Shown in pieces: positions 12,441-37,043 of a stretch of DNA of 64,000 nt (the stretch's first letter is position 1; the number at the start of each line of letters is the position of its first letter). The notes under the pieces were generated by a model. It was not told the origin of the DNA and did no database searches. It saw nothing but the letters and a program-made list of their open reading frames with translations. Origin of the DNA: Acidobacteriota bacterium (lineage in GTDB: Bacteria; Acidobacteriota; UBA6911); contig JBBIMP010000023.1 of NCBI GenBank assembly GCA_037444305.1, positions 2,798-66,797 of the forward strand. The letters run 5' to 3'. The position numbers and the translations under genes are program-made.

Positions 12441-13619
12441 CTAGCGGGACAGGATCAGCTTGGCAATCGTCTGCAGCTGCATGTTCGACGTCCCTTCGTA
12501 AATCTTGCCGATCATCGCATCGCGGTAGTATTTCTCCACCGGGTATTCCCTCGTGTAGCCGTACCCGCCGAAGATCTCGATCGCGAGGCCGGTGACGCGC
12601 GCCGCTGCCTGGGAGGAATAGTACTTGGCCATCGCTGCCTCCCGGACGAAGTTCTTCCCGGCCATCTTCATCCTCGCGGCGTTGTAGACCATCAGCCTGG
12701 CCGCCTCCACCTCGGTCGCTGCCTTTGCCAGGTCGAACTGCACCCCCTGGAAGCTCGCGATGGGCTTGCCGAACTGCACGCGTTCATTGGCATAACGCAG
12801 CGCGTGATCCAGGGCGCCCTGGGCCACGCCCACCATCTGCGCGCCAATCCCGATGCGGCCCTCGTTCAGCGTTTCGATCGAAACCTTGTAGCCCTTCCCC
12901 ACCTCCCCCAGCACCCTTTCTGCGGGCAGGAAGCAGTCCTCCAGGATCAGCTCGCAGGTGGAGCTGGCCCGGATCCCCAGCTTGTCCTCCTTCTTTCCCA
13001 CGCTGAATCCCGCGTCCTCCCGCTCGACGATAAACGCGGTGATTCCCCTGTAACCCTTCTCCGGGTCGGCATTGGCAAACACGATGAAGATTCGCGCTTC
13101 GCCCGCGTTCGTGATCCACAGCTTCTGTCCGTTCAGGACGAAGCCTCCGTCCTTTTTCTCGGCCCTGGCGGCGAGCGCAAAGGCGTCGCTGCCCGACCCG
13201 GCCTCGGACAGGGCGTAGGCGCCCACGGTGTCGCTGCACAGGCGCGGCAGATACTCCCGCTTCTGCTCCTCCGTGCCCCAGCAGAGAATGGCGTTGTTCA
13301 CCAGCGTGTTCTGCACATCCACGATGACCGCCGCCGAGGCATCGACCCGGGAGAGCTCCTCCACCGCCTGACACGCCATGAAAAAGCTGCCGCCGGCGCC
13401 GCCGTATTGCTCGGGGATGGCCACGCCCATCAGTCCGAGTTCGAACATCTGACGCAGCAGCCCTGCATCCATCCTGGCCTCCAGGTCCATCCTGGAAACG
13501 TGAGGGCCGATCTGCTCCTCCGCGAATCCCGCAACCGTCGATTTGAACAGCTCCTCCTCCTCGGACAGGAGCGTCAGGGGGAAGCGGGCGCCTGTGAGAT
13601 TTCCGGTTTCCTCGTGCAT
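12441..13619 (-). CDS. Acyl-CoA dehydrogenase
   Basis: Full-length ACAD pattern: YALSEAGSGSDA ... KLWITN ... QIFGGYGY ... YEGTSNMQ. I take the internal ATG at 13619. Confidence 0.9.
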   Translation of the reverse strand: MHEETGNLTGARFPLTLLSEEEELFKSTVAGFAEEQIGPHVSRMDLEARMDAGLLRQMFELGLMGVAIPEQYGGAGGSFFMACQAVEELSRVDASAAVIVDVQNTLVNNAILCWGTEEQKREYLPRLCSDTVGAYALSEAGSGSDAFALAARAEKKDGGFVLNGQKLWITNAGEARIFIVFANADPEKGYRGITAFIVEREDAGFSVGKKEDKLGIRASSTCELILEDCFLPAERVLGEVGKGYKVSIETLNEGRIGIGAQMVGVAQGALDHALRYANERVQFGKPIASFQGVQFDLAKAATEVEAARLMVYNAARMKMAGKNFVREAAMAKYYSSQAAARVTGLAIEIFGGYGYTREYPVEKYYRDAMIGKIYEGTSNMQLQTIAKLILSR

Positions 13620-13795
13620 GAATGTGAACCTCCGATCGTTTGATGTAAGAAGACCCGAACGTTTATAACACCAGCCTGCCGGGAACATCCAGCCCCAGAA
13701 GCGGCAAGACGGCTGCTGCCAGCCCCTCCTGTCCCGGCCCCGGATCCTCCTCCATCCTTTGCCGAATCAGGTAATTGTAAGAATGCGGGTCTCGT

Positions 13796-27891: not shown

Positions 27892-28206
27892 GTGGGCAGC
27901 CGCCGGTTCATCGTGGAGTCGGACAGAGGGCTGGAGATGGTGATTCACGTGCAGCCGCGGGCGCATCGGACGGAATGTGCCGGTCTGCACGGGAGCGCAC
28001 TGAAGCTCCGCATCGCTGCGCCGCCCGTGGCTGATGCGGCAAACCGGGCGCTCCTGGAGTTCATCGCCGAGCGGCTGGGCATCGCCCGCGCCCGCGTCCG
28101 CATACTCGTCGGAGAGAAATCGCGCACGAAGAAGATTGCCCTTAAGGGGATGGGGCTGGCGGAGTTTGTGTCGAAAGTTCCGGGTGCAGACCACTTCAAC
28201 GGATGA
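27892..28206 (+). CDS. DUF167/YggU-family protein
   Basis: A ~100-aa protein immediately after yggS (the conserved yggS-yggU pairing), with a GTG start and a KLRIAAPPVADAANRAL core. Confidence 0.6.
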   Translation: MGSRRFIVESDRGLEMVIHVQPRAHRTECAGLHGSALKLRIAAPPVADAANRALLEFIAERLGIARARVRILVGEKSRTKKIALKGMGLAEFVSKVPGADHFNG

Positions 28207-28229
28207 TCGGAGGTCGGAGTCATTCAACC

Positions 28230-28907
28230 ATGCAGACGGAAAAATATCTCAAAGGCAGCCACCTGGGGGCCGGGCTCAACCCAACGGAGCTCGCCGCGCT
28301 CACGGCGATCGCCCGCACGAAGACCGTGACCAAGGGATCGATCCTCTTCATGGAAGGGGAAAAGGCCGAGGGTCTTTTCGTCCTGTTGAAGGGGATGCTC
28401 CGGATCTACAAGTCGGCTGCGTCGGGCAGGGAATATACGATCCACAGGATTCAGCCCGGGCAGATGTTCGCCGAGGCGGCCGTGTTTCACGTCGGCCGTT
28501 TTCCGGCCAACTGCGCCGCCCTGGAGGATTCCCTCGTCGCCTTTTTCCCCAAGGAGCGGTTCGCCGCGCTCATCGAGAAATCCCCGCAGATCTCGCTGAA
28601 AATCATCGCATCTCTCTCCAGGTTTCTGCGCGACTACAACCAGCAGGTGGAGAACCTCTCGCTGAAGGAAGTTCCCGCCCGCATCGCCTCCTACCTGCTG
28701 CGCGAATCCGAACGGCTCGATTCGCCGAGCATCGACCTGGAGATATCCAAGGCGGAACTGGCCAGGGGGCTGGGCACCATCAGCGAGACTTTTTCCCGCT
28801 CGCTGAAAAAACTCAAGGAGCTGCGGGTGATCAAGGTGGACCGCAACCGGATCACCATCCTGGATGAAGACCGCCTGGCCGACATCGCAGACGGTGAAAA
28901 AAGCTGA
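28230..28907 (+). CDS. Crp/Fnr-family transcriptional regulator
   Basis: A cNMP-binding beta-roll (ILFMEGEKAEGLFVLLKGMLRI) and a C-terminal HTH (ISKAELARGLGTISETFSRSLKKL). Start is either the ATG at 28230 or the one at 28203. Confidence 0.8.
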   Translation: MQTEKYLKGSHLGAGLNPTELAALTAIARTKTVTKGSILFMEGEKAEGLFVLLKGMLRIYKSAASGREYTIHRIQPGQMFAEAAVFHVGRFPANCAALEDSLVAFFPKERFAALIEKSPQISLKIIASLSRFLRDYNQQVENLSLKEVPARIASYLLRESERLDSPSIDLEISKAELARGLGTISETFSRSLKKLKELRVIKVDRNRITILDEDRLADIADGEKS

Positions 28908-28990
28908 CCCTTGACGCAAGTCAAGGAATCCGCATTTGCCGTCCGGTATCGTTGGAGCCGAAAGCTGGACTCAACGAAAAGGAGCGAGGT

Positions 28991-29743
28991 ATGCCGGTAC
29001 GGAACATCATTCACATCGACGAGGAAAAGTGCGACGGCTGCGGATTGTGCGTCCCCTCCTGCGCGGAAGGCGCCATCCAGATCGTCAACGGCAAGGCAAA
29101 ACTCGTGAACGAGGTGTATTGCGACGGCCTGGGCGCCTGCCTCGGCGAGTGCCCGCAGGATGCCATCCGCATGGAGCAGAGGCGGGCGCCGGAGTTCGAT
29201 CCGCACGCGGTCGAGGCGCATCTCGCCGCGCTGTCGGCCAAACAGGCGCCGGCTCCTCCGAAACCGCTGTTTTCATCGCCTCATCCCGCCGGCTGCCCCG
29301 GTTCGATGTCGCAGGTGTTGCAGCCCACGGCAAACCCTTGCGCGGCCCCGGCGGCGACGGCGCAGCCGCCCTCGAGGCTCGGCAACTGGCCGCTGCAGTT
29401 GCACCTGGTGCCGGTGCAGGCCCCGTTCTATGAGAATGCGGATCTGCTCATCGCGGCCGACTGCGCCCCGTTCGCCTACGCGGGTTTCCACGACGAGTTC
29501 ATCAAGGGAAAGACGGTGATGATCGGCTGCCCGAAGCTGGATGACGCCGGCGCCTACGTGGAAAAGCTGACGCAGATTTTCGCCGGCAACAGCATAAGAT
29601 CGGTCGAGATTGCCTTCATGGAAGTGCCCTGCTGTTTCGGGCTGGTCCGGCTGGTGCAGGAGGCAGTCGCCGGTTCGGGGAAGAGCATCCCGGTGAATCT
29701 GGCCAAGCTCGGCATCCGCGGCGGCATCGCGCAGCGCGGGTAG
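28991..29743 (+). CDS. 4Fe-4S dicluster-domain protein with a Cys-containing C-terminal domain of unknown function
   Basis: CDGCGLCVPSC and CDGLGACLGECP cluster motifs. The RBS AAAGGAG precedes the ATG at 28991, inside ORF 28952..29743. Confidence 0.65.
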   Translation: MPVRNIIHIDEEKCDGCGLCVPSCAEGAIQIVNGKAKLVNEVYCDGLGACLGECPQDAIRMEQRRAPEFDPHAVEAHLAALSAKQAPAPPKPLFSSPHPAGCPGSMSQVLQPTANPCAAPAATAQPPSRLGNWPLQLHLVPVQAPFYENADLLIAADCAPFAYAGFHDEFIKGKTVMIGCPKLDDAGAYVEKLTQIFAGNSIRSVEIAFMEVPCCFGLVRLVQEAVAGSGKSIPVNLAKLGIRGGIAQRG

Positions 29744-29854: not shown

Positions 29855-31894
29855 TCACTGCCTGCGGGCGAACGAATCCTGCGGCAGGCGGAGGCTCTCG
29901 AGCGTCAGCGTCGCGATATCCACCACCCGGATCCGCTCATCCAGATCGCGCAGTTTGACCGAATCCTCCAGCATCTGCTTGCAGTAGGCACACGAGGTGA
30001 CAATCGTGTCCGCCCCCTGTGCCTGCGCCTGGTCCACCCTGAGGTTGTTGATCCTCTCCCCGGCCTTCAGGTCCATCCAGAAATGTCCGCCGCCGCCGCC
30101 GCAGCACAGGCTCCGGGACCGGGCGTTCTTCATCTCCGCCACGTTCACGCCGGGAATGGCCCGGAGCACCTCCCTCGGGCTGTCGTAGATCTTCTGAAAG
30201 CGCCCCAGGTAGCACGGATCGTGATACACCGCCTTCTGCGCCGGCAGACCGACCGGCCGCAGGTGATCGCTCCAGAGCATCTCGTGCAGGTACTCCGTGT
30301 GGTGCACCACGCGGTAGTTTCCGCCGAATTGCGGGTATTCATGCGCCAGGACGTTGAAACAGTGCGGGCAGGCGGTCAGGAGCACCTGGAAACGGCGGCG
30401 GTTGAGCAGTTCGATCTGGCTCCTGGCCACTTCCTGAAACAGCGACTCGTCCCCCAGCAGCCGCGCAGGATCCCCGCAGCATCGCTCGTCCGCCCCGAGT
30501 ACGCCGAAGCGGATCCCGGTGGCCTGCAGCAGGCGGCAGAGGTCCTGGGCAATCTGCTGCTTCGTGGGATCGAACGTGGTGCAGCAGCCGATCCACAGCA
30601 GCACATCGATCGACTCCCCCTCGCCGATGACCGGGATCCCCATTTTTTCGATCCACGCCATGCGCTCCCCTTGCGGCCCGAAGGGATTGCCGAGCTGGCC
30701 GAGCATCTTCAGCATGCGGGCGGCATCGACCGGAACCGAGCCTCCCATCATGGTCTGGTGCCGGCGCAGGTCGACGACCGTGTCGAGGTGCTCGACCCGC
30801 GCCGGACAGACCTCCTGGCAGGCGCCGCAGGTGCGACAGTACCAGATCAGGTCGCCGTCGATGGCGCCGCCCACGACCTGACGGGGCGCGCCGGCGCCAT
30901 TCCCGTTCCCCCTTCCGGCTTCGCTGCGCACGAAGGCCTTCAGCTCGGAGATCAGCGCGCGCGGCGAGAGCGGCTGCCTCGCCTGCCGCGAAGGGCAGAC
31001 GTCGTCGCAGCGGCCGCACTCGACGCACCCGTCGAAGCCCAGCCTTTCCCGCCAGGTGAAGTCGGCTGCGGTGGCGATGCCGATCTGCAGCGCCGCTTCG
31101 TCGATGTCCTCCGCCGCCATAAGCGCGGCTACATCCGGCCGCGCGAGGCTGCCCCAGGCCTCGGTCTTCTGCAGTGCCACGTTGGCCGGGATCAGCACCA
31201 TGTGCAGCAGCTTGGTGTAGGGGATCAAGGCGATGAAGCCGAGCGCCATGACGCAGTGGGTCCACCAGACAAAGGCGTGAAGCGCGCGCCCGGCGTCTGC
31301 CCCCAAACCTGAAAACAAAAGCGAAAAGGCAGAGCCCACCGGGGACCACGCTGCCCACGGATCGCCAGCCACCCTGATGCGGAGCCCTTCGACCAGGAAT
31401 CCGCTCAGGAGAATCCCCGCGAGCAGCGCCAGCACCAGGTGATCCGCCGCGCGCGTGGGTAGCGTCGCCGGCCGGGCGATCGTGCGGCGGTAGAGGGCGA
31501 TGCCGATCCCCACCAGCGCCAGCAATCCCGCGATATCGGCCGCGAGCGAAAACACCAGGTAAAGGGTGCCCCGGAAGAGCGACGTGCCCAGGTCCATGTC
31601 CAACATCACCAGCAGCGTCGTCAGGAACATCACCGCAAAGGCATAGAAGATGAGACCGTGAAACAGCGCCGGCAGGCGCTCGCGCCCGACTCCCCGCTGC
31701 AGCAGAATCTCCTTGAGCATTGCCATGAGGCGCGCGCCGGGAGCCGACGTGCGATCTACGGGACGGCCGATCTGCCACTGCCTGTATCTCCGCCGGATCC
31801 CGAGGCCGAACACCACCGCGGTCGCGCCCAGCAGCGCGTACATGATCCAGATGAAGCTGACGTTCCAGCCGAGTTCTCGATGGGCTTCCACCAT
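29855..31894 (-). CDS. Fused NarI-like dihaem cytochrome b membrane domain plus HdrD-like Fe-S/CCG-domain oxidoreductase (DsrMK/HdrED-type)
   Basis: An N-terminal ~300 aa with five or more TM helices and conserved His residues. Then CVECGRCDDVCP and CRTCGACQEVCP (two 4Fe-4S sites). Then two CCG modules (WIGCCTTFDP ... CPHCFN and CCGGGGGHFW ... CAYCKQ). I take the ATG at ~31894 inside ORF 29855..31975. Confidence 0.7.
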   Translation of the reverse strand: MVEAHRELGWNVSFIWIMYALLGATAVVFGLGIRRRYRQWQIGRPVDRTSAPGARLMAMLKEILLQRGVGRERLPALFHGLIFYAFAVMFLTTLLVMLDMDLGTSLFRGTLYLVFSLAADIAGLLALVGIGIALYRRTIARPATLPTRAADHLVLALLAGILLSGFLVEGLRIRVAGDPWAAWSPVGSAFSLLFSGLGADAGRALHAFVWWTHCVMALGFIALIPYTKLLHMVLIPANVALQKTEAWGSLARPDVAALMAAEDIDEAALQIGIATAADFTWRERLGFDGCVECGRCDDVCPSRQARQPLSPRALISELKAFVRSEAGRGNGNGAGAPRQVVGGAIDGDLIWYCRTCGACQEVCPARVEHLDTVVDLRRHQTMMGGSVPVDAARMLKMLGQLGNPFGPQGERMAWIEKMGIPVIGEGESIDVLLWIGCCTTFDPTKQQIAQDLCRLLQATGIRFGVLGADERCCGDPARLLGDESLFQEVARSQIELLNRRRFQVLLTACPHCFNVLAHEYPQFGGNYRVVHHTEYLHEMLWSDHLRPVGLPAQKAVYHDPCYLGRFQKIYDSPREVLRAIPGVNVAEMKNARSRSLCCGGGGGHFWMDLKAGERINNLRVDQAQAQGADTIVTSCAYCKQMLEDSVKLRDLDERIRVVDIATLTLESLRLPQDSFARRQ

Positions 31895-31898
31895 GGGA

Positions 31899-32393
31899 TT
31901 ACACTCCTGTCGAATGCCGTGCGGGCAGAGCGGCGGCCGGCAGCACGACCTGGGGCAACGGCTCGGCAAACACACTCACCGGCGCATCGGCCGGCACAGT
32001 CACCTCCCGGCCGTGCCCGACGCCGGAAGGCGTGCGCCGGTAGTGGCTGCGCACCTTCTGCGAGACAACATCCCAGAGTTCCGTCGCCGCCACCAGCTTT
32101 GCTCCGCGCAGGTCCAGAAGCGCCAACAGCGGCCGCAGCGCTGCCATGGACCTCGACAGGCAGCCGCATCGGTCGACCAGGAACGAGCTCCAGGGCCCCT
32201 CGAACCGCAGGGCCGCTCGCAGCCCCGTGCGGTCCATCAACGAACACTCCCGCGCCTCGTCCTCAAACCAGGCGATGATCTCGATTCCCTGCTGCCGGGC
32301 GTATTCCTCGATCCGGCGCCGCTGGTCGGCGCAGCACACCTCGCCGGATCCGGTGCAAGACGATATCGGGCTCACATATGCAATGGCCTTCAT
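31899..32393 (-). CDS. Small Cys-rich protein with a resolvase-N-terminal-like (flavodoxin-like) fold; paralog A1
   Basis: MKAIAYV ... VCCADQ ... LVDRCGCLSRS ... AATELWD. About 35-40% identical to the upstream paralog. Internal ATG at 32393 inside ORF 31899..32408. Confidence 0.5.
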   Translation of the reverse strand: MKAIAYVSPISSCTGSGEVCCADQRRRIEEYARQQGIEIIAWFEDEARECSLMDRTGLRAALRFEGPWSSFLVDRCGCLSRSMAALRPLLALLDLRGAKLVAATELWDVVSQKVRSHYRRTPSGVGHGREVTVPADAPVSVFAEPLPQVVLPAAALPARHSTGV

Positions 32394-32447: not shown

Positions 32448-32927
32448 TCACAGGCCGGTCGGCTGCCGTACCAGAGCGGCGAAGTTGAGGCGGGCGGGCC
32501 GCTTCATTCCGATCCGATCCCGCACGGGCACGATCTGCGTGATCACGCAGGTCGGCGGCCGCAGCGCACCTTTGTGGAAGTGCCGCACCTGCTGCGAGAG
32601 GCAGTCCCACAGCTCGGTGGCCGACTGCAGCGCGACATTCTTTTCCTGCAACGCCTCCAGCAGCGGCCTCACCTCCGACAGGGACCTGCTGAAGCACCAG
32701 ATACGCTCCACCAGGATGAGGTCGTAGGAATCCGGGTGCGCCAGCATCGCCTTGACACCTGGACGCTCCACCACCGGCCCGTGGCAACCGTCATCTTCAA
32801 ACCGCGCCACGATCTCTATGCCGTGTGTCTTGGCGTACAGCTCAATCTGCTCGCGCTGCTCCTCGCAACAGATTTCGATATCGGTGTTGGGGATTCGAAT
32901 GCAGTTCACATAGGTGATGGCTTTCAT
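32448..32927 (-). CDS. Small Cys-rich protein with a resolvase-N-terminal-like (flavodoxin-like) fold; paralog A2
   Basis: MKAITYV ... ICCEEQ ... LVERIWCFSRS ... SATELWD. RBS AAGGAG 7 nt before the ATG at 32927 (inside ORF 32448..32972). Confidence 0.5.
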   Translation of the reverse strand: MKAITYVNCIRIPNTDIEICCEEQREQIELYAKTHGIEIVARFEDDGCHGPVVERPGVKAMLAHPDSYDLILVERIWCFSRSLSEVRPLLEALQEKNVALQSATELWDCLSQQVRHFHKGALRPPTCVITQIVPVRDRIGMKRPARLNFAALVRQPTGL

Positions 32928-32967: not shown

Positions 32968-32983
32968 AGCACGCTCCGTGCCA
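32968..32983 (-). promoter_or_regulatory. Candidate sigma-54 (-24/-12) promoter: TGGCACGGAGCGTGCT
   Basis: On the minus strand, the GG and GC elements have exactly the consensus spacing. It lies ~40 nt upstream of the A2 ATG and immediately downstream of a GAFTGA-type bEBP gene. Confidence 0.45.
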
Positions 32984-33312: not shown

Positions 33313-34677
33313 TCAGTCGAGGCCGTGTTTTTTCAGCTTGCTGTGCAGGCCGACGCGGGAGCAGCCGAGTATTCTCGCGGCGGCGGTGCGGTTGCCGGAG
33401 GTGTGGTCCAGAACCCGGATAATGTGCTCGCGCTCCAGTTCCGAGAGCGTCTTGAACCCATGGGCGCCGGCGGGAAGACGGGAACCGTTCAGCCCGGCAG
33501 TGACCGCCGGGGGGAGCGACCTCCGGGTGAGCGCACGCTTTTTTTCGAGCACAACGGCGGAGGCGATGATGTTCTCCAGTTCCCGGACGTTTCCCGGATA
33601 GTCGTAACGCTCCAGGATCTCGAGCACGTCGTCTTCTATGTATTCGATCCGCCTGTCGTTCCTCCGGCAGTGCCGGTCGAGGAAGAAATAGGCCAGCAGG
33701 TCCACATCCCCCTTCCGCTCCCTGAGCGGCGGGAGGTGGATGGAACTGATGTTGAGCCGGTAATAAAGGTCGAGGCGAAATCCGCCCGCCTCGATCATCG
33801 CCGGCAGGTCCCGGTTGGTAGTGGCGATGACCCTCACGTCCACGCCCCGCCGCTGCGTCGATCCCACGTGAAAGAACTCCCCCTCCTGCAGAACCCGCAG
33901 GAGCTTTGCTTGGTTGACCGCCTCCAGGTCGCCGATCTCGTCCAAGAAGAGCGTGCCGCCATCCGCTTCCTCGAAGAAGCCGGTTTTCTGCCGGTGGGCG
34001 CCCGTGAACGCGCCCCTCTCGTGGCCGAAGAACTCGGAGGCGAACAGGTCGGCCGCGTGCTCCGCCATATTGACCGCAATGAAGGGCCCGGCAGCGCGAG
34101 GACTGGCGCGGTGGATGGCGTGCGCCACCAGCTCCTTTCCGGTTCCGCTCTCCCCCTGGATGAGAACGTTGTTGCCGCTCCGCGCGATCTGCTCCAGCCT
34201 TCCGAGGATGCGAAGCAGGGCCGGATCGCGCGTGACGATTCCGTGGAAGCCGGCCTCGTGTCTCAGCTTTTCCTGGGCAATCTCCCCCCGCAGCCGGGAG
34301 ACCTGGCCGCGGAGACGGCTGTGCTCCAATGCGCGTTCCATGGAGGTCAGGAGCCGGTTTTTGTCCACGGGCTTGCAGATGTAGTCGTAGGCTCCCAGCT
34401 TCATGGCATCGACCGCGAGCGAAACGTCCTCCACCCCGGTAATCACGATCACCCCCAGGTCATGTTTCTCGCGGACGTACCGGAGAATGTCCCGGCCCGT
34501 GACCGTGGGCATATCCATGTCCAGGAGGATCAGGTCGAAATCACCGCCGTCAATCACACTGAAGGCGCGGCTGCTGTCCTGGAGCGTCTCCACTTCGAAG
34601 CGGCCGTCCTGGGCGAAGAACACGAGGAAGTGGTTCAGGACGGCCTCGTTGTCGTCGATGATGAGGATGCGGTTCAC
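33313..34677 (-). CDS. Sigma-54-dependent response regulator (NtrC/AtoC family): REC, AAA+ and Fis-type HTH domains
   Basis: ILIIDDNE ... LLDMDMP (REC), GESGTGKE, GAFTGA, a C-terminal HTH (AAARILGCSRVGLHSKLKK). GTG start at 34677, overlapping the kinase stop (GTGA). Confidence 0.85.
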   Translation of the reverse strand: MNRILIIDDNEAVLNHFLVFFAQDGRFEVETLQDSSRAFSVIDGGDFDLILLDMDMPTVTGRDILRYVREKHDLGVIVITGVEDVSLAVDAMKLGAYDYICKPVDKNRLLTSMERALEHSRLRGQVSRLRGEIAQEKLRHEAGFHGIVTRDPALLRILGRLEQIARSGNNVLIQGESGTGKELVAHAIHRASPRAAGPFIAVNMAEHAADLFASEFFGHERGAFTGAHRQKTGFFEEADGGTLFLDEIGDLEAVNQAKLLRVLQEGEFFHVGSTQRRGVDVRVIATTNRDLPAMIEAGGFRLDLYYRLNISSIHLPPLRERKGDVDLLAYFFLDRHCRRNDRRIEYIEDDVLEILERYDYPGNVRELENIIASAVVLEKKRALTRRSLPPAVTAGLNGSRLPAGAHGFKTLSELEREHIIRVLDHTSGNRTAAARILGCSRVGLHSKLKKHGLD

Positions 34678-36140
34678 GTAGCCCTCCCGCCGATGGGGAA
34701 TATGTAACGAAAGGTCGCGCCCTTGCCCTGCGAGCTGTCCACCTCGATCCGGCCGCCGTGCTGTTGCACGATGCCGTAGGTGATCGACAGGCCCAGCCCT
34801 GTCCCGCCCGCGCGTTGCCGGGTCGTGAAAAACGGATCGAAAAGCCGGGCCTGAGCCGCTTCGTCGATTCCCGGGCCGTTGTCCTTGATGGCCACCCACA
34901 CCTTGGGCGGAAAGGTGACAGCGCGCGTCGTGATCTCGATGGCCGGGTCGGGGGAGCCGGCGAGCGCGTCCGCGGCATTGATCAGCGTGTTCACGATGAC
35001 CTGGCCGATGCGGTTGGCGCTCCCCTTGAAGGTCGGCAGCCGTGGATCCAGGTCTTCGACGACGCGGAAGTGCTTGATGCGGTTGTGCACTAGGCGCCTC
35101 GACGATTCGATCACAGCGTTGAGGTCGACATCGTCCTCCAGCAACCCTTCGTCCCGCCGGGCGAAGATCCTGAGATCGCGGACGATGTCGCGGATGCGCG
35201 TCACGCCGTCGACCATATCGTCCAGCAGCGCCGGGGCGTGCTTGCGGAAGAAAGGATACTTCAGCCGCGCGACCGTCAGCTCCGGGTTGCGCCCGGCCTC
35301 TTCGTCCAGCAGCGGAAGGATGTCGTCGAAGCTCTCGCGCACTATCTGCATGTTGCCGCCGATGAACTGCACCGGGTTGTTGATCTCGTGCGCTATGCCG
35401 GAGACGAGCTGCCCGAGCGAGGCCAGCTTCTCCGACTGGATGAGCTGGCTCTGCTGGTTGAGCAGCTCGTCGTTGGCGCGGCGCAGCTCGTGGGACTTGG
35501 CATCGAGCAGGTCCCAGGCTTCCACCAGCTCCTGCTCGCGCCTGCGCAGGCTGGTGACGATCGAGGTTGTGATCCAGATGGTGACGAACAAGGTGACGAA
35601 AAAGACCAGGGCCACTGTCCCGATGAAGCGGACGTCCTGGTGCCGGGGAACCGGGTGGAGCGCACGCAGGTTCACGTGCGGGAGCACCTCGTGGTACTCC
35701 AGCAGGACAACCCCCATGAACATGCCGAACGCCACCAGGCCGAAGGCGTAGACCTCGGCCCGCGACAGCAGGATGCTGCTGATGATGGCGTGGAAGAGGT
35801 AGAAGAACAGAAGAGGATTTTCGATCCCCCCGGCGAAGTGGATGAGCAGGCTCAGGGCCAGCGTGTCCAGGTAGGTCTGCAGGATGGCCTCGGTTCGATT
35901 GGTGCCGGAACTCCTCCCTCCGCGGGCCTTCTGCCGCCGGTGCCCGAAGAAGAAAACCGTGTTGTAAAGGCCGATCACCGCGGCCACTGTGAGTGTGCCC
36001 GCGCGGGAGAAACTCACCCCCAGGAGATCGTGAGCGAAGAAGATCGAGGCTGCCAAGCCGGCCAGGAAGACCCAGCGGATGTTGACGAACCACCAGAGGC
36101 GGAATTTGAGTTCTTCTTCTCTGAGCGATCGACTCGACAT
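34674..36140 (-). CDS. Sensor histidine kinase with a multi-TM N-terminal sensor domain
   Basis: HisKA (SGIAHEINNP) and HATPase_c (DNGPGID ... GTGLGLSI). The start is at 36140 or at 36176. Confidence 0.8.
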   Translation of the reverse strand: MSSRSLREEELKFRLWWFVNIRWVFLAGLAASIFFAHDLLGVSFSRAGTLTVAAVIGLYNTVFFFGHRRQKARGGRSSGTNRTEAILQTYLDTLALSLLIHFAGGIENPLLFFYLFHAIISSILLSRAEVYAFGLVAFGMFMGVVLLEYHEVLPHVNLRALHPVPRHQDVRFIGTVALVFFVTLFVTIWITTSIVTSLRRREQELVEAWDLLDAKSHELRRANDELLNQQSQLIQSEKLASLGQLVSGIAHEINNPVQFIGGNMQIVRESFDDILPLLDEEAGRNPELTVARLKYPFFRKHAPALLDDMVDGVTRIRDIVRDLRIFARRDEGLLEDDVDLNAVIESSRRLVHNRIKHFRVVEDLDPRLPTFKGSANRIGQVIVNTLINAADALAGSPDPAIEITTRAVTFPPKVWVAIKDNGPGIDEAAQARLFDPFFTTRQRAGGTGLGLSITYGIVQQHGGRIEVDSSQGKGATFRYIFPIGGRAT

Positions 36141-36362: not shown

Positions 36363-37043
36363 CTAGGCAAGCATCCGCTCCCGGGCCAACCGGCGGCCGG
36401 TTGCGGTATGGAGCTTCTTTTCAATAAGGCTTTCCCGTGCAGGCCGGTCGAGCAAAGATCTGCGCTGCAGCAACTTGAACAGGTTCACCGCATCCCGGAC
36501 GATCCTTCCATCCGCCTCGGCCGAACCGTTCGACTCGCCGCCGCCCGACAGGATATGGCAGACCCGGTCGATCACTTCCCCCTCGGTTCCCAGCTCCAGC
36601 AAAACGGCGCACGCCTCTTCCTCGGATCCCGGTTCCGCAAGGTTCGCCAGCATCGCCGCGGCAATCACCACCTTGGGCTCGCCGCCCTCCTCCGAGTTGA
36701 TCTCTTCGGCCAGCTCGGCAATCTCCAGGCACTGCTGCAGCCGGTCATTCTCGGGTTTTAACGACCTGCGCACGACCGCCAATAGCCGGTCGCGATACAG
36801 CGCGCTCAGATTCTCTCCTTCGAACATCTCGGGCATGCAGGTTTCGGCGTACTTGCAGTACTCCAGGCAGCCCAGGTTGCGCTTGGGATTCAAAAAGCGG
36901 TGGCCGCACCTGCAGGTGCGCTTGGCGTCATCCTTCCAGAATTCGACCGGCTTGCCGCAACTGGGGCACTTGACGTCGTAGATGTCGTCCGGCTTCCAGA
37001 ACATGGTGTTCTGTCCCGGACAGCGGAGATCGTTCTGGCTCAC
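36363..37043 (-). CDS. Cys-rich (zinc-ribbon-like, 8 Cys) N-terminal domain protein with a degenerate HD-like C-terminal region
   Basis: CPSCGKP ... CRCGH ... GCLEYCKYAETC. It is co-oriented with, and ~190 nt upstream of, the kinase gene. Confidence 0.4.
   Translation of the reverse strand: MSQNDLRCPGQNTMFWKPDDIYDVKCPSCGKPVEFWKDDAKRTCRCGHRFLNPKRNLGCLEYCKYAETCMPEMFEGENLSALYRDRLLAVVRRSLKPENDRLQQCLEIAELAEEINSEEGGEPKVVIAAAMLANLAEPGSEEEACAVLLELGTEGEVIDRVCHILSGGGESNGSAEADGRIVRDAVNLFKLLQRRSLLDRPARESLIEKKLHTATGRRLARERMLA

What the first reader, a model, noticed from the sequence alone, without database searches (positions are those of the whole stretch)
29855..31894. Single-polypeptide fusion of a NarI/DsrM-like cytochrome b and an HdrD/DsrK-like CCG-domain Fe-S protein
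In DsrMK, HdrED and HmeCD these are normally two subunits. Here ~300 aa of polytopic membrane domain with His-rich helices (HGLIFYAF..., HAFVWWTHCV..., LLHMVLIP) is fused in-frame to a domain carrying two ferredoxin-like CxxCxxCxxxCP motifs and two CCG modules.

Fused forms are rare, and their physiological partner and electron acceptor are unknown. Here the gene is flanked by the Cys-rich duo rather than by dsrC, dsrAB, qmo or apr genes.
Basis: partly seen in the sequence, partly recalled or inferred. Interest (0 to 1): 0.55.

Follow-up and report, generated by a model that had tools for sequence, protein, structure and literature searches.

The report
EtfD/EMO-type membrane quinone reductase gene
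The gene encodes a real one-piece membrane cytochrome b plus iron-sulfur protein, but it belongs to a common, structurally solved family (EtfD/EMO) that passes electrons from fatty-acid oxidation to menaquinone; its only unusual feature is a conserved pairing with small inactive resolvase-like genes and a sigma-54 sensor system.

Summary
One uninterrupted minus-strand ORF (29855..31894, 679 aa) encodes three domains. They are a five-helix NarI-like cytochrome b domain, a two-cubane ferredoxin domain and two CCG (non-cubane cluster) modules.

I found more than 399 full-length homologs at 48-57% identity, and at least 550 relatives among species-representative genomes.

The family is already characterised as EtfD/EMO, the ETF:(methyl)menaquinone oxidoreductase.
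- The best solved relative is M. smegmatis EtfD (9OJN): sequence E=2.9e-94, and the AlphaFold model matches it over its full length with TM 0.83.
- Every cofactor ligand of EtfD maps onto an identical residue, including His511, which in EMOs blocks the heterodisulfide substrate site.
- DsrK, QmoC, NarI and TfrB models all score far below their cut-offs.

Most likely function: electrons pass from a flavoprotein donor (ETF) through four Fe-S clusters and haem b to menaquinone.

One caveat applies. This gene sits in a paralogous clade that rarely neighbours etfAB. That clade is instead often co-transcribed with one or two catalytically dead resolvase-domain proteins, from a sigma-54 promoter next to a histidine kinase/activator pair. 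That module is undescribed, so the donor for this paralog is inferred, not shown.

The parts
29855..31894 (-). EtfD/EMO-family gene (679 aa): a single polypeptide of cytochrome b domain, 2x[4Fe-4S] domain and non-cubane-cluster (2xCCG) domain.
   Evidence: ORF. Pfam domains. 9OJN match at E=2.9e-94. AlphaFold model against 9OJN gives TM 0.83. Identical gene call.
31160..31894 (-). Membrane domain, residues 1-245, with five transmembrane helices at about 10-34, 73-104, 109-139, 145-175 and 199-237. His79 and His231 are the proximal haem b ligands. His213 is the distal haem ligand. Phe86, Phe220, Arg137 and Arg295 match the quinone and propionate contacts of M. smegmatis EtfD.
   Evidence: Ligand identities are taken from PMC13083937 and bioRxiv 10.64898/2026.08.18.745454.
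30695..31057 (-). HdrC-like ferredoxin domain, residues about 280-400. It carries two cubane [4Fe-4S] sites: C290/C293/C296/C363 and C300/C353/C356/C359.
29891..30622 (-). HdrB-like non-cubane-cluster domain, residues about 425-668, made of two CCG modules. The distal site is C437/C472/C473/C509/C512. The proximal site is C561/C597/C598/C635/C638 plus His511, within the motif C509-P-H-C512.
31899..32393 (-). resB, a 164-aa degenerate serine-recombinase catalytic-domain protein. Its stop codon lies 4 nt before the EtfD/EMO start codon.
32448..32927 (-). resA, a 159-aa paralog of resB. It is preceded by an AAGGAG ribosome-binding site.
32969..32983 (-). Sigma-54 type -24/-12 promoter match, TGGCACGGAGCGTGC, about 42 nt upstream of the resA ATG.
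   Evidence: One search found it with 1 mismatch. One search found the same element upstream of the resolvase-like gene in 7 of 12 related loci, against a background of 0.02 per kb.
33313..34677 (-). Sigma-54-dependent response regulator: receiver, AAA+ sigma-54 activator and Fis-type HTH domains.
34674..36140 (-). Membrane histidine kinase with a polytopic N-terminal domain, HisKA and HATPase_c domains.

Best explanation
The gene encodes a member of the EtfD/EMO family of membrane-bound electron-transfer-flavoprotein:(methyl)menaquinone oxidoreductases.

**Proposed mechanism**
1. A reduced flavoprotein donor docks on the cytoplasmic CCG domain. In characterised members this donor is EtfAB, which is charged by acyl-CoA dehydrogenases.
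2. Electrons enter at the two non-cubane Fe-S clusters.
3. They pass through the two cubane [4Fe-4S] clusters to the proximal haem b (His79/His231). They may continue to a distal haem at His213.
4. They reduce menaquinone in the membrane.

His511 fills the position where heterodisulfide reductases bind their thiol substrate. The CCG clusters therefore act as a wire, not as a disulfide-reducing active site.

**Local organisation**
The gene is the last of a three-gene operon, resA-resB-etfD. The operon is apparently driven by a sigma-54 promoter under the adjacent histidine kinase and sigma-54 activator, so the enzyme would be inducible.

**Shown versus inferred**
- Shown: the fusion, the fold, all ligands and the conserved operon.
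- Inferred: ETF as the donor for this particular paralog, menaquinone as the acceptor, and the number of haems.
For: **Sequence and structure**
- The top solved relative is M. smegmatis EtfD, 9OJN_A (E=2.9e-94).
- The AlphaFold model (pLDDT 82.4) aligns to 9OJN over its full length (TM 0.83, E=5.8e-35). All other hits cover only a single domain: LutA, HdrB or NarI.

**Cofactor ligands**
- All 22 cofactor ligands of EtfD map to identical residues. So do Arg137, Arg295, Phe86 and Phe220.
- These residues are invariant in 23 homologs. They are kept across 75 family members spanning 35-100% identity.

**Context in relatives**
- Relatives at 35-40% identity sit in operons with etfB and etfA, acyl-CoA dehydrogenase, thiolase and acyl-CoA ligase.
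- An acyl-CoA dehydrogenase gene lies in the window at 12441-13688.
- One resolvase-like/two-component-system locus, L086, is flanked by acyl-CoA dehydrogenase, thiolase and AMP-ligase genes.

**Published function and structure**
PMC8593149, PMC13083937 and bioRxiv 10.64898/2026.08.18.745454.
Against: - No etfAB lies in the 64-kb window.
- In the clade with 41% or more identity to this protein, only 3 of 37 loci have ETF genes within 10 kb. In the more distant group the figure is 10 of 47. Acyl-CoA dehydrogenase is found in 2 of 37 against 15 of 47.
- One Myxococcota contig (L004) carries both a classical-type paralog and a paralog of this type, 5 kb apart.
- Acidobacteriota also have ETF-operon-linked members (L084, L044). 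This clade may therefore be a functionally diverged paralog.
- The role of the co-transcribed resolvase-like proteins is unknown.
- The rest of the genome could not be searched.
Confidence: 0.62

Rival explanations
1. This is a diverged EMO-like paralog that keeps the same electron wire but serves a donor other than ETF. Candidate donors include a small FMN flavoprotein or an unknown partner recruited by the resolvase-like proteins. It would be switched on by the sigma-54 two-component system in response to a specific substrate.
For: - The resolvase-like gene or genes lie directly upstream on the same strand in 13 of 84 loci. All 13 fall within this clade. They are never found elsewhere in 1.37 Mb of locus sequence.
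- A sigma-54 activator lies within 5 kb in 10 of 15 resolvase-like loci, against 0 of 55 other loci.
- A sigma-54 promoter is conserved upstream of the resolvase-like gene.
- Paralogs coexist on one contig.
- ETF linkage is low in this clade.
- FMN_red genes recur next to family members in 14 loci from two distant clades.
Against: - All cofactor ligands and the EMO-specific His511 are unchanged.
- M. tuberculosis etfD is not co-located with etfBA, which form their own operon (rv3029c-rv3028c; PMC8593149), so lack of linkage proves little.
- Some clade members have ETF genes 2-4 kb away (L021, L022).
- The resolvase-like proteins have no conserved Cys or His and show no sign of a redox cofactor.
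- In L086 the resolvase-like gene follows the two-component system without an EMO-like gene, which suggests a regulatory role rather than a catalytic one.
Confidence: 0.27
2. This is a fused DsrMK/HmeCD/HdrDE-type enzyme that reduces a protein or cofactor disulfide or trisulfide with menaquinol.
For: The domain types are those of HdrE/DsrM plus HdrD/DsrK. The full ten-cysteine CCG set is present, as in HdrB.
Against: - DsrK scores 34.6 bits against a cut-off of 400.
- HmcF scores 45.7 against 750, TmcB 57.2 against 735 and QmoC 28.3 against 300.
- His511 occupies the substrate site. HdrB has C-N-G-C where this protein has C-P-H-C (alignment; bioRxiv 10.64898/2026.08.18.745454).
- No dsr, apr, qmo or hdr genes occur in the window.
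Confidence: 0.03
3. This is the membrane anchor and Fe-S subunit of a flavoprotein dehydrogenase of the GlpC, GlcF, LdhH or TfrB type, acting on glycerol-3-phosphate, glycolate, lactate or fumarate.
For: There are partial NCBIfam matches to TfrB (155.9 bits), LdhH (110 bits) and GlpC (79 bits).
Against: - All three matches are far below their cut-offs of 385, 800 and 278 bits.
- They cover only the soluble half of the protein.
- No catalytic flavoprotein subunit gene is adjacent here or in related loci.
Confidence: 0.04

Closest known systems
Mycobacterium smegmatis / M. tuberculosis EtfD (Rv0338c; PDB 9OJN)
   Same: - Single polypeptide with five transmembrane helices, two cubane clusters and two CCG modules.
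- All haem and Fe-S ligands, the C-P-H-C motif, and the quinone-pocket Phe and haem-propionate Arg residues are identical.
- Full-length structural match, TM 0.83.
   Different: - This protein lacks the roughly 260-residue disordered C-terminal tail of the mycobacterial protein (679 aa against 1042 aa).
- It has Cys473 where M. smegmatis has Thr539. The distal site therefore has five Cys, as in HdrB. It would be expected to hold a non-cubane [4Fe-4S] cluster rather than the linear [3Fe-4S] cluster.
- Foldseek reports 28% identity over the full-length structural alignment to 9OJN.
Syntrophus aciditrophicus EMO (ETF:methylmenaquinone oxidoreductase)
   Same: - Similar size (679 aa against 706 aa) and the same three-domain architecture.
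- The three conserved histidines have the same 18-residue spacing in TM5.
- A histidine blocks the substrate site.
   Different: - The S. aciditrophicus enzyme has Gly after that histidine and carries a [4Fe:5S] cluster. This protein has Cys512.
- Whether this protein carries the distal twin haem, and runs a proton-motive-force-coupled redox loop, cannot be told from sequence.
- The syntrophic-type genes sit beside etfAB, as in the Syntrophaceae locus L073. This gene does not.
HdrDE / DsrMK / HmeCD (two-subunit membrane heterodisulfide-type reductases)
   Same: The modules are homologous: a NarI-like cytochrome b plus a protein with a ferredoxin domain and two CCG domains.
   Different: - Those complexes are made of two subunits.
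- Their CCG clusters form an open catalytic site for thiol/disulfide chemistry. Here His511 closes that site.
- The family models score far below their cut-offs.
Small serine recombinases (gamma-delta/Tn3 resolvase, Sin, Gin), as the nearest relatives of the upstream resA and resB genes
   Same: The catalytic-domain fold, including helix E, is shared. Pfam Resolvase matches at E=1e-12 and 1e-6.
   Different: - There is no DNA-binding domain.
- The Arg8/Ser10 catalytic motif is not kept.
- The genes are fixed beside a sigma-54 two-component system and an EMO-like gene, not in a mobile element.

Membership tests
EtfD/EMO (ETF:(methyl)menaquinone oxidoreductase) | One polypeptide made of an N-terminal five-helix NarI-like domain, an HdrC-like two-cubane domain and an HdrB-like two-CCG domain. 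| tested here: met
   The full-length match to 9OJN has TM 0.83.
EtfD/EMO (ETF:(methyl)menaquinone oxidoreductase) | Three conserved haem histidines: S. aciditrophicus H87/H233/H251, M. smegmatis H78/H223/H241. | tested here: met
   They correspond to His79, His213 and His231. These are aligned to M. smegmatis H78/H223/H241 and invariant in 23 homologs.
EtfD/EMO (ETF:(methyl)menaquinone oxidoreductase) | Eight cysteines for two cubane [4Fe-4S] clusters. | tested here: met
   C290/293/296/363 and C300/353/356/359 align to the M. smegmatis ligands.
EtfD/EMO (ETF:(methyl)menaquinone oxidoreductase) | Non-cubane cluster ligands, plus a histidine (S. aciditrophicus H534, M. smegmatis H583) ligating the proximal cluster and closing the HDR substrate site. 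| tested here: met
   His511 lies in C509-P-H-C512. C561/597/598/635/638 and C437/472/473 are present.
EtfD/EMO (ETF:(methyl)menaquinone oxidoreductase) | A cognate EtfAB is encoded in the genome, often adjacent. | tested here: inconclusive
   No etfAB lies in the 64-kb window. ETF is adjacent in many 35-40% relatives but in only 3 of 37 loci of this clade.
EtfD/EMO (ETF:(methyl)menaquinone oxidoreductase) | ETF-dependent reduction of menaquinone or methylmenaquinone. | not testable with these tools
   This is a biochemical assay.
DsrMK / HdrDE / HmeCD | The soluble subunit scores as DsrK, or as the related HmcF/TmcB, above the curated cut-off. | tested here: not met
   DsrK scores 34.6 against 400, HmcF 45.7 against 750 and TmcB 57.2 against 735.
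DsrMK / HdrDE / HmeCD | An open thiol/disulfide-binding site at the proximal non-cubane cluster, with no His ligand. | tested here: not met
   His511 is present and invariant. HdrB has C-N-G-C at this motif (alignment).
DsrMK / HdrDE / HmeCD | Genomic association with dsrC, dsrAB, dsrJOP, qmo, apr or methanogenesis genes. | tested here: not met
   None is present in the window or in the related loci surveyed.
NarI (respiratory nitrate reductase gamma subunit) | The protein scores above the NarI equivalog cut-off. | tested here: not met
   TIGR00351 scores 23.5 bits against a cut-off of 105.55.
NarI (respiratory nitrate reductase gamma subunit) | Four haem-ligand histidines, two in TM2 and two in TM5. 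| tested here: not met
   Only one TM2 histidine, His79, is present.
Serine recombinase (for the upstream resA and resB genes) | The catalytic Y-x-R-x-S nucleophile motif. | tested here: not met
   The fold is met. The Arg and Ser of the motif are not conserved.
Serine recombinase (for the upstream resA and resB genes) | A DNA-binding domain. | tested here: not met
   The 140-184-aa proteins contain no HTH domain.

The most novel reading that the evidence does not exclude
The clade containing this gene could be a distinct, inducible variant of the EMO respiratory module. In this variant one or two catalytically dead serine-recombinase domains have been domesticated as fixed partners of the enzyme, acting as a subunit, assembly factor, donor adaptor or regulator. 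The unit would be controlled by a dedicated sigma-54 two-component system and would serve a donor or substrate other than the housekeeping ETF pool. It would also carry a third, still unsolved chemistry at the distal non-cubane cluster: an all-cysteine site combined with the EMO histidine.
Probability: 0.27. Interest if true: 0.55.

Novelty: new member of a known kind. Interest (0 to 1): 0.27.

Why it matters
As originally framed, as a rare orphan DsrMK-like fusion, the finding does not matter much. The fusion is the normal form of EtfD/EMO, the widespread enzyme that links acyl-CoA oxidation to the menaquinone pool, and it now has cryo-EM structures.

Two smaller points have value.
- Most family members, including this one, have a full-cysteine distal CCG site. 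Both solved enzymes are exceptions at this site, one with a linear [3Fe-4S] cluster and one with a [4Fe:5S] cluster. The commonest cluster form of the family is therefore still structurally unseen.
- A rare family of dead resolvase-domain proteins is strictly tied to a sigma-54 two-component system and usually to this EMO paralog. The family comprises about 35-55 sequence clusters among 1.8 billion representatives. This would be an unusual domestication of a recombinase domain into a respiratory or regulatory operon, and it is testable.

Tried and rejected
- **ETF genes in the window.** I searched with EtfA, EtfB, thiolase and FMN_red seeds taken from related loci. Only one acyl-CoA dehydrogenase was found, at 12441-13688.
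- **Precomputed annotation for the left part of the window.** I tried to fetch it through the acyl-CoA dehydrogenase ORF. The exact product was not on record, probably because of a different start codon. I used Pfam scans of 30 ORFs instead and found housekeeping genes only.
- **Word-indexed search with resA alone.** This found only 4 relatives. A profile was needed.
- **First sigma-54 promoter script.** It had an indexing error and returned nothing. The corrected version is.
- **Greedy ORF calling.** It mis-called the fusion gene in L004, L031 and L060 and found no usable ORF in five loci (L016, L019, L026, L037, L055). Those eight loci (three mis-called rows, five absent) were ignored.
- **Organism name.** Cluster look-up gave no names. 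The phylum is only suggested by the nearest homologs, from Acidobacteriota and Myxococcota MAGs, and by a GWxTD-domain gene.
- **Literature on the resolvase-like association.** A search for a resolvase-like, sigma-54 and heterodisulfide-reductase association found nothing relevant.
- **Rejected readings.** DsrMK, HdrDE, QmoC, NarI, GlpC, LdhH and TfrB were rejected on score cut-offs and context.
Full report
**1. Observation**

The minus strand carries one uninterrupted ORF ending at 29855.
- An AGGAG ribosome-binding site lies 9 nt upstream of it.
- The TAA stop of the preceding gene ends 4 nt before it.
- Homologs begin at the equivalent position.
- Exactly this 679-aa product is called in NCBI assembly GCA_964538715.1 (contig CAZIEJ010000011.1) and in a Logan assembly of SRR11582151.

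There is no frameshift.

Pfam finds Nitrate_red_gam (residues 112-238), a 4Fe-4S dicluster domain (288-366) and two CCG domains. Hydropathy analysis and the AlphaFold model both give five transmembrane helices. A strongly basic loop follows TM1. This places the N-terminus outside the cell and the Fe-S domains in the cytoplasm.

**2. What it is**

The best solved relative by sequence is M. smegmatis EtfD, 9OJN_A ('iron-sulfur-binding reductase'), at E=2.9e-94. HdrB, HdrC, NarI and FrdB match only single domains, at E values of 1e-5 or weaker.

An AlphaFold2 model built on 23 homologs (pLDDT 82.4, pTM 0.77) matches 9OJN over its whole length (TM 0.83, E=5.8e-35). The next hits cover one domain each: LutA, HdrB and NarI.

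I used the residue-level HMMER alignment to map every cofactor ligand reported for EtfD (PMC13083937). Each falls on an identical residue:

| Cofactor in M. smegmatis EtfD | Ligands in M. smegmatis | Residues in this protein |
|---|---|---|
| Proximal haem b | His78 / His241 | His79 / His231 |
| Conserved distal His | His223 | His213 |
| Cubane cluster D4 | Cys301 / 304 / 307 / 422 | C290 / C293 / C296 / C363 |
| Cubane cluster D3 | Cys311 / 412 / 415 / 418 | C300 / C353 / C356 / C359 |
| Distal CCG cluster (D1) | Cys503 / 538 / 581 / 584 | C437 / C472 / C509 / C512 |
| Proximal non-cubane cluster (D2) | Cys637 / 672 / 673 / 709 / 712, His583 | C561 / C597 / C598 / C635 / C638, His511 |

The haem-propionate arginines (Arg137, Arg295) and the quinone-pocket phenylalanines (Phe86, Phe220) are also kept. 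All of these residues are invariant in 23 homologs. The pattern holds across 75 family members from 35% to 100% identity.

The S. aciditrophicus EMO structure paper states that the three histidines are conserved across EMO-type membrane domains. It also states that the histidine in the first CxxC motif occupies the CoM-binding site of heterodisulfide reductase, so the CCG clusters act in electron transfer rather than catalysis (bioRxiv 10.64898/2026.08.18.745454). HdrB has C-N-G-C where this protein has C-P-H-C (alignment).

| Model | Score (bits) | Cut-off (bits) |
|---|---|---|
| DsrK | 34.6 | 400 |
| HmcF | 45.7 | 750 |
| TmcB | 57.2 | 735 |
| QmoC | 28.3 | 300 |
| NarI | 23.5 | 105.55 |
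| TfrB | 155.9 | 385 |

**3. Rarity**

The fusion is not rare.
- 399 proteins reached E of 1e-10 or better among the scored candidates. The best 120 listed are full-length (96-100% of the query covered) at 48-57% identity. Many are annotated 'Fe-S oxidoreductase/nitrate reductase gamma subunit'.
These came from Acidobacteriota, Myxococcota, Desulfobacterota, Bdellovibrionota, Chloroflexota, Bacillota and Mycobacterium.

The family's function is established genetically in M. tuberculosis. There, etfD and etfBA are both required for acyl-CoA dehydrogenase function, and EtfD pulls down EtfB (PMC8593149). It is established biochemically and structurally in S. aciditrophicus and M. smegmatis.

**4. 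Context and the caveat**

The 64-kb window holds housekeeping genes. These include dnaK-dnaJ-grpE-hrcA, ribonucleotide reductase, hfq, smpB, pdxA, tmk and holB. It also holds one acyl-CoA dehydrogenase at 12441-13688. It contains no etfAB and no dsr, apr, qmo or sox genes.

I compared 84 related loci.
- Relatives at 35-40% identity commonly sit beside etfB and etfA, acyl-CoA dehydrogenase, thiolase or acyl-CoA ligase. ETF lies within 10 kb in 10 of 47 such loci, and acyl-CoA dehydrogenase in 15 of 47.
- In the clade with 41% or more identity to this protein, the figures are 3 of 37 and 2 of 37.
- A Myxococcota contig (L004) carries a classical-type paralog and a paralog of this type 5 kb apart.
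- Acidobacteriota also have ETF-operon members (L084, L044).

The window gene therefore belongs to a paralogous lineage. ETF as its donor is an inference from family membership, not something shown here.

**5. The conserved operon**

Two small genes lie directly upstream on the same strand: resA (32448..32927) and resB (31899..32393). They match Pfam Resolvase.

Their homologs lie immediately upstream of the EMO-like gene, on the same strand with a gap of 8-123 nt, in 13 loci. They occur nowhere else in 1.37 Mb of fetched sequence.

Starting instead from the resolvase-like family, all three long contigs examined have a divergent histidine kinase and sigma-54 activator next to the gene. Two of the three have the EMO-like gene after it. 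The third has acyl-CoA dehydrogenase, thiolase and AMP-ligase genes beside the two-component system.

A sigma-54 activator lies within 5 kb upstream in 10 of 15 resolvase-like loci and in 0 of 55 other family loci.

A TGGCAC-N5-TTGC element with 1 mismatch or fewer lies just upstream of the resolvase-like gene in 7 of 12 loci. The background rate is 0.02 per kb per strand. In the window it is at 32969-32983 on the minus strand, about 42 nt before the resA ATG.

Properties of the resolvase-like proteins:
- The resA model (pLDDT 86.8) matches only serine-recombinase catalytic domains, including Bxb1, TP901-1, Sin and gamma-delta resolvase.
- The proteins lack a DNA-binding domain.
- They do not keep the Arg and Ser of the catalytic motif.
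- They have no conserved Cys or His.
- The family is small: 35 clusters at E of 1e-30 or better among 1.84 billion representatives. Some members are two- or three-domain tandem fusions. This mirrors the two adjacent genes in the window.

Their role is unknown. Possibilities are a subunit, an adaptor or a regulator.

**6. Fine structure of the distal cluster**

Neither solved enzyme has the canonical ligand set at the distal CCG site.
- M. smegmatis has Thr in place of the second Cys of the first CCG motif and carries a linear [3Fe-4S] cluster.
- S. aciditrophicus has Gly in place of the last Cys of the CxHC motif and carries a [4Fe:5S] cluster.

The window protein, like most of the family, has all five cysteines (C437, C472, C473, C509, C512). 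The Thr/Ser variant is confined to a Bdellovibrionota-type clade. The Gly variant occurs in four loci. By analogy with HdrB, a non-cubane [4Fe-4S] cluster is expected at this site. This is inferred, not shown.

**7. Verdict**

It is wrong about rarity, about the partner being unknown, and about the Dsr/Hdr framing.

The gene is a new member of the known EtfD/EMO family. Its most likely function is as a flavoprotein (ETF):menaquinone oxidoreductase. Family membership is near certain. ETF as the donor for this paralog has a probability of roughly 0.6.

The only part with real novelty lies outside the stated finding. It is the conserved module of a sigma-54 two-component system, pseudo-resolvase gene or genes, and an EMO paralog.

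Noticed in passing
window 31899-32393 (-) and 32448-32927 (-); also L003, L004, L006-L008, L025, L029, L030, L068, L077, L081, L086-L088: There is a small family of 140-184-aa proteins with a serine-recombinase catalytic fold. They have no catalytic Arg/Ser motif and no DNA-binding domain. They are always placed next to a sigma-54 two-component system and usually directly upstream of an EMO-like gene. Some members are two- or three-domain tandem fusions. Several members share a C-terminal tail motif, approximately RPxxLxFxxLxR.
   Followed up: partly
window 32969-32983 (-): A sigma-54 -24/-12 promoter match, TGGCACGGAGCGTGC, lies upstream of resA. The equivalent element is found in 7 of 12 related loci.
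   Followed up: yes
L004 743-2827 and 8001-10136: Two EMO-family paralogs lie 5 kb apart on one Myxococcota contig. One is nearest to the ETF-linked/mycobacterial type and the other to the resolvase-linked type.
   Followed up: partly
L006, L007, L009, L011-L014, L020 (Acidobacteriota); L046, L059, L063, L064, L071, L079 (Chloroflexota): A gene of about 190 aa for an NADPH-dependent FMN reductase-like (FMN_red) protein recurs within 0.1-3 kb of EMO-like genes in two distant clades. This hints at a possible alternative flavoprotein donor.
   Followed up: no
window 36363-37004 (-): A 213-aa ORF with a Cys-rich, zinc-ribbon-like N-terminus has no Pfam family. It lies just upstream of the histidine kinase on the same strand. 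It may be part of the same gene cluster.
   Followed up: no
window 28203-28907 (+) and 28952-29743 (+): A Crp/Fnr-family regulator is followed by a ferredoxin-domain protein with an AF_0155-type C-terminal domain. This pair is convergent with the EtfD-like gene. A similar Fer4/AF_0155 gene also lies about 8 kb from the homolog in L005.
   Followed up: no
residue 206 of the protein (window about 31277-31279): His206 lies two helical turns outside the distal haem ligand His213 on TM5. It is invariant in the close clade and present in nearly all family members, but is replaced by Tyr or Val in a few. It is not among the ligands described in either solved structure.
   Followed up: no
window 12441-13688 (-): This acyl-CoA dehydrogenase gene is the only beta-oxidation-type gene in the window. 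It lies about 16 kb from the EtfD-like gene.
   Followed up: partly
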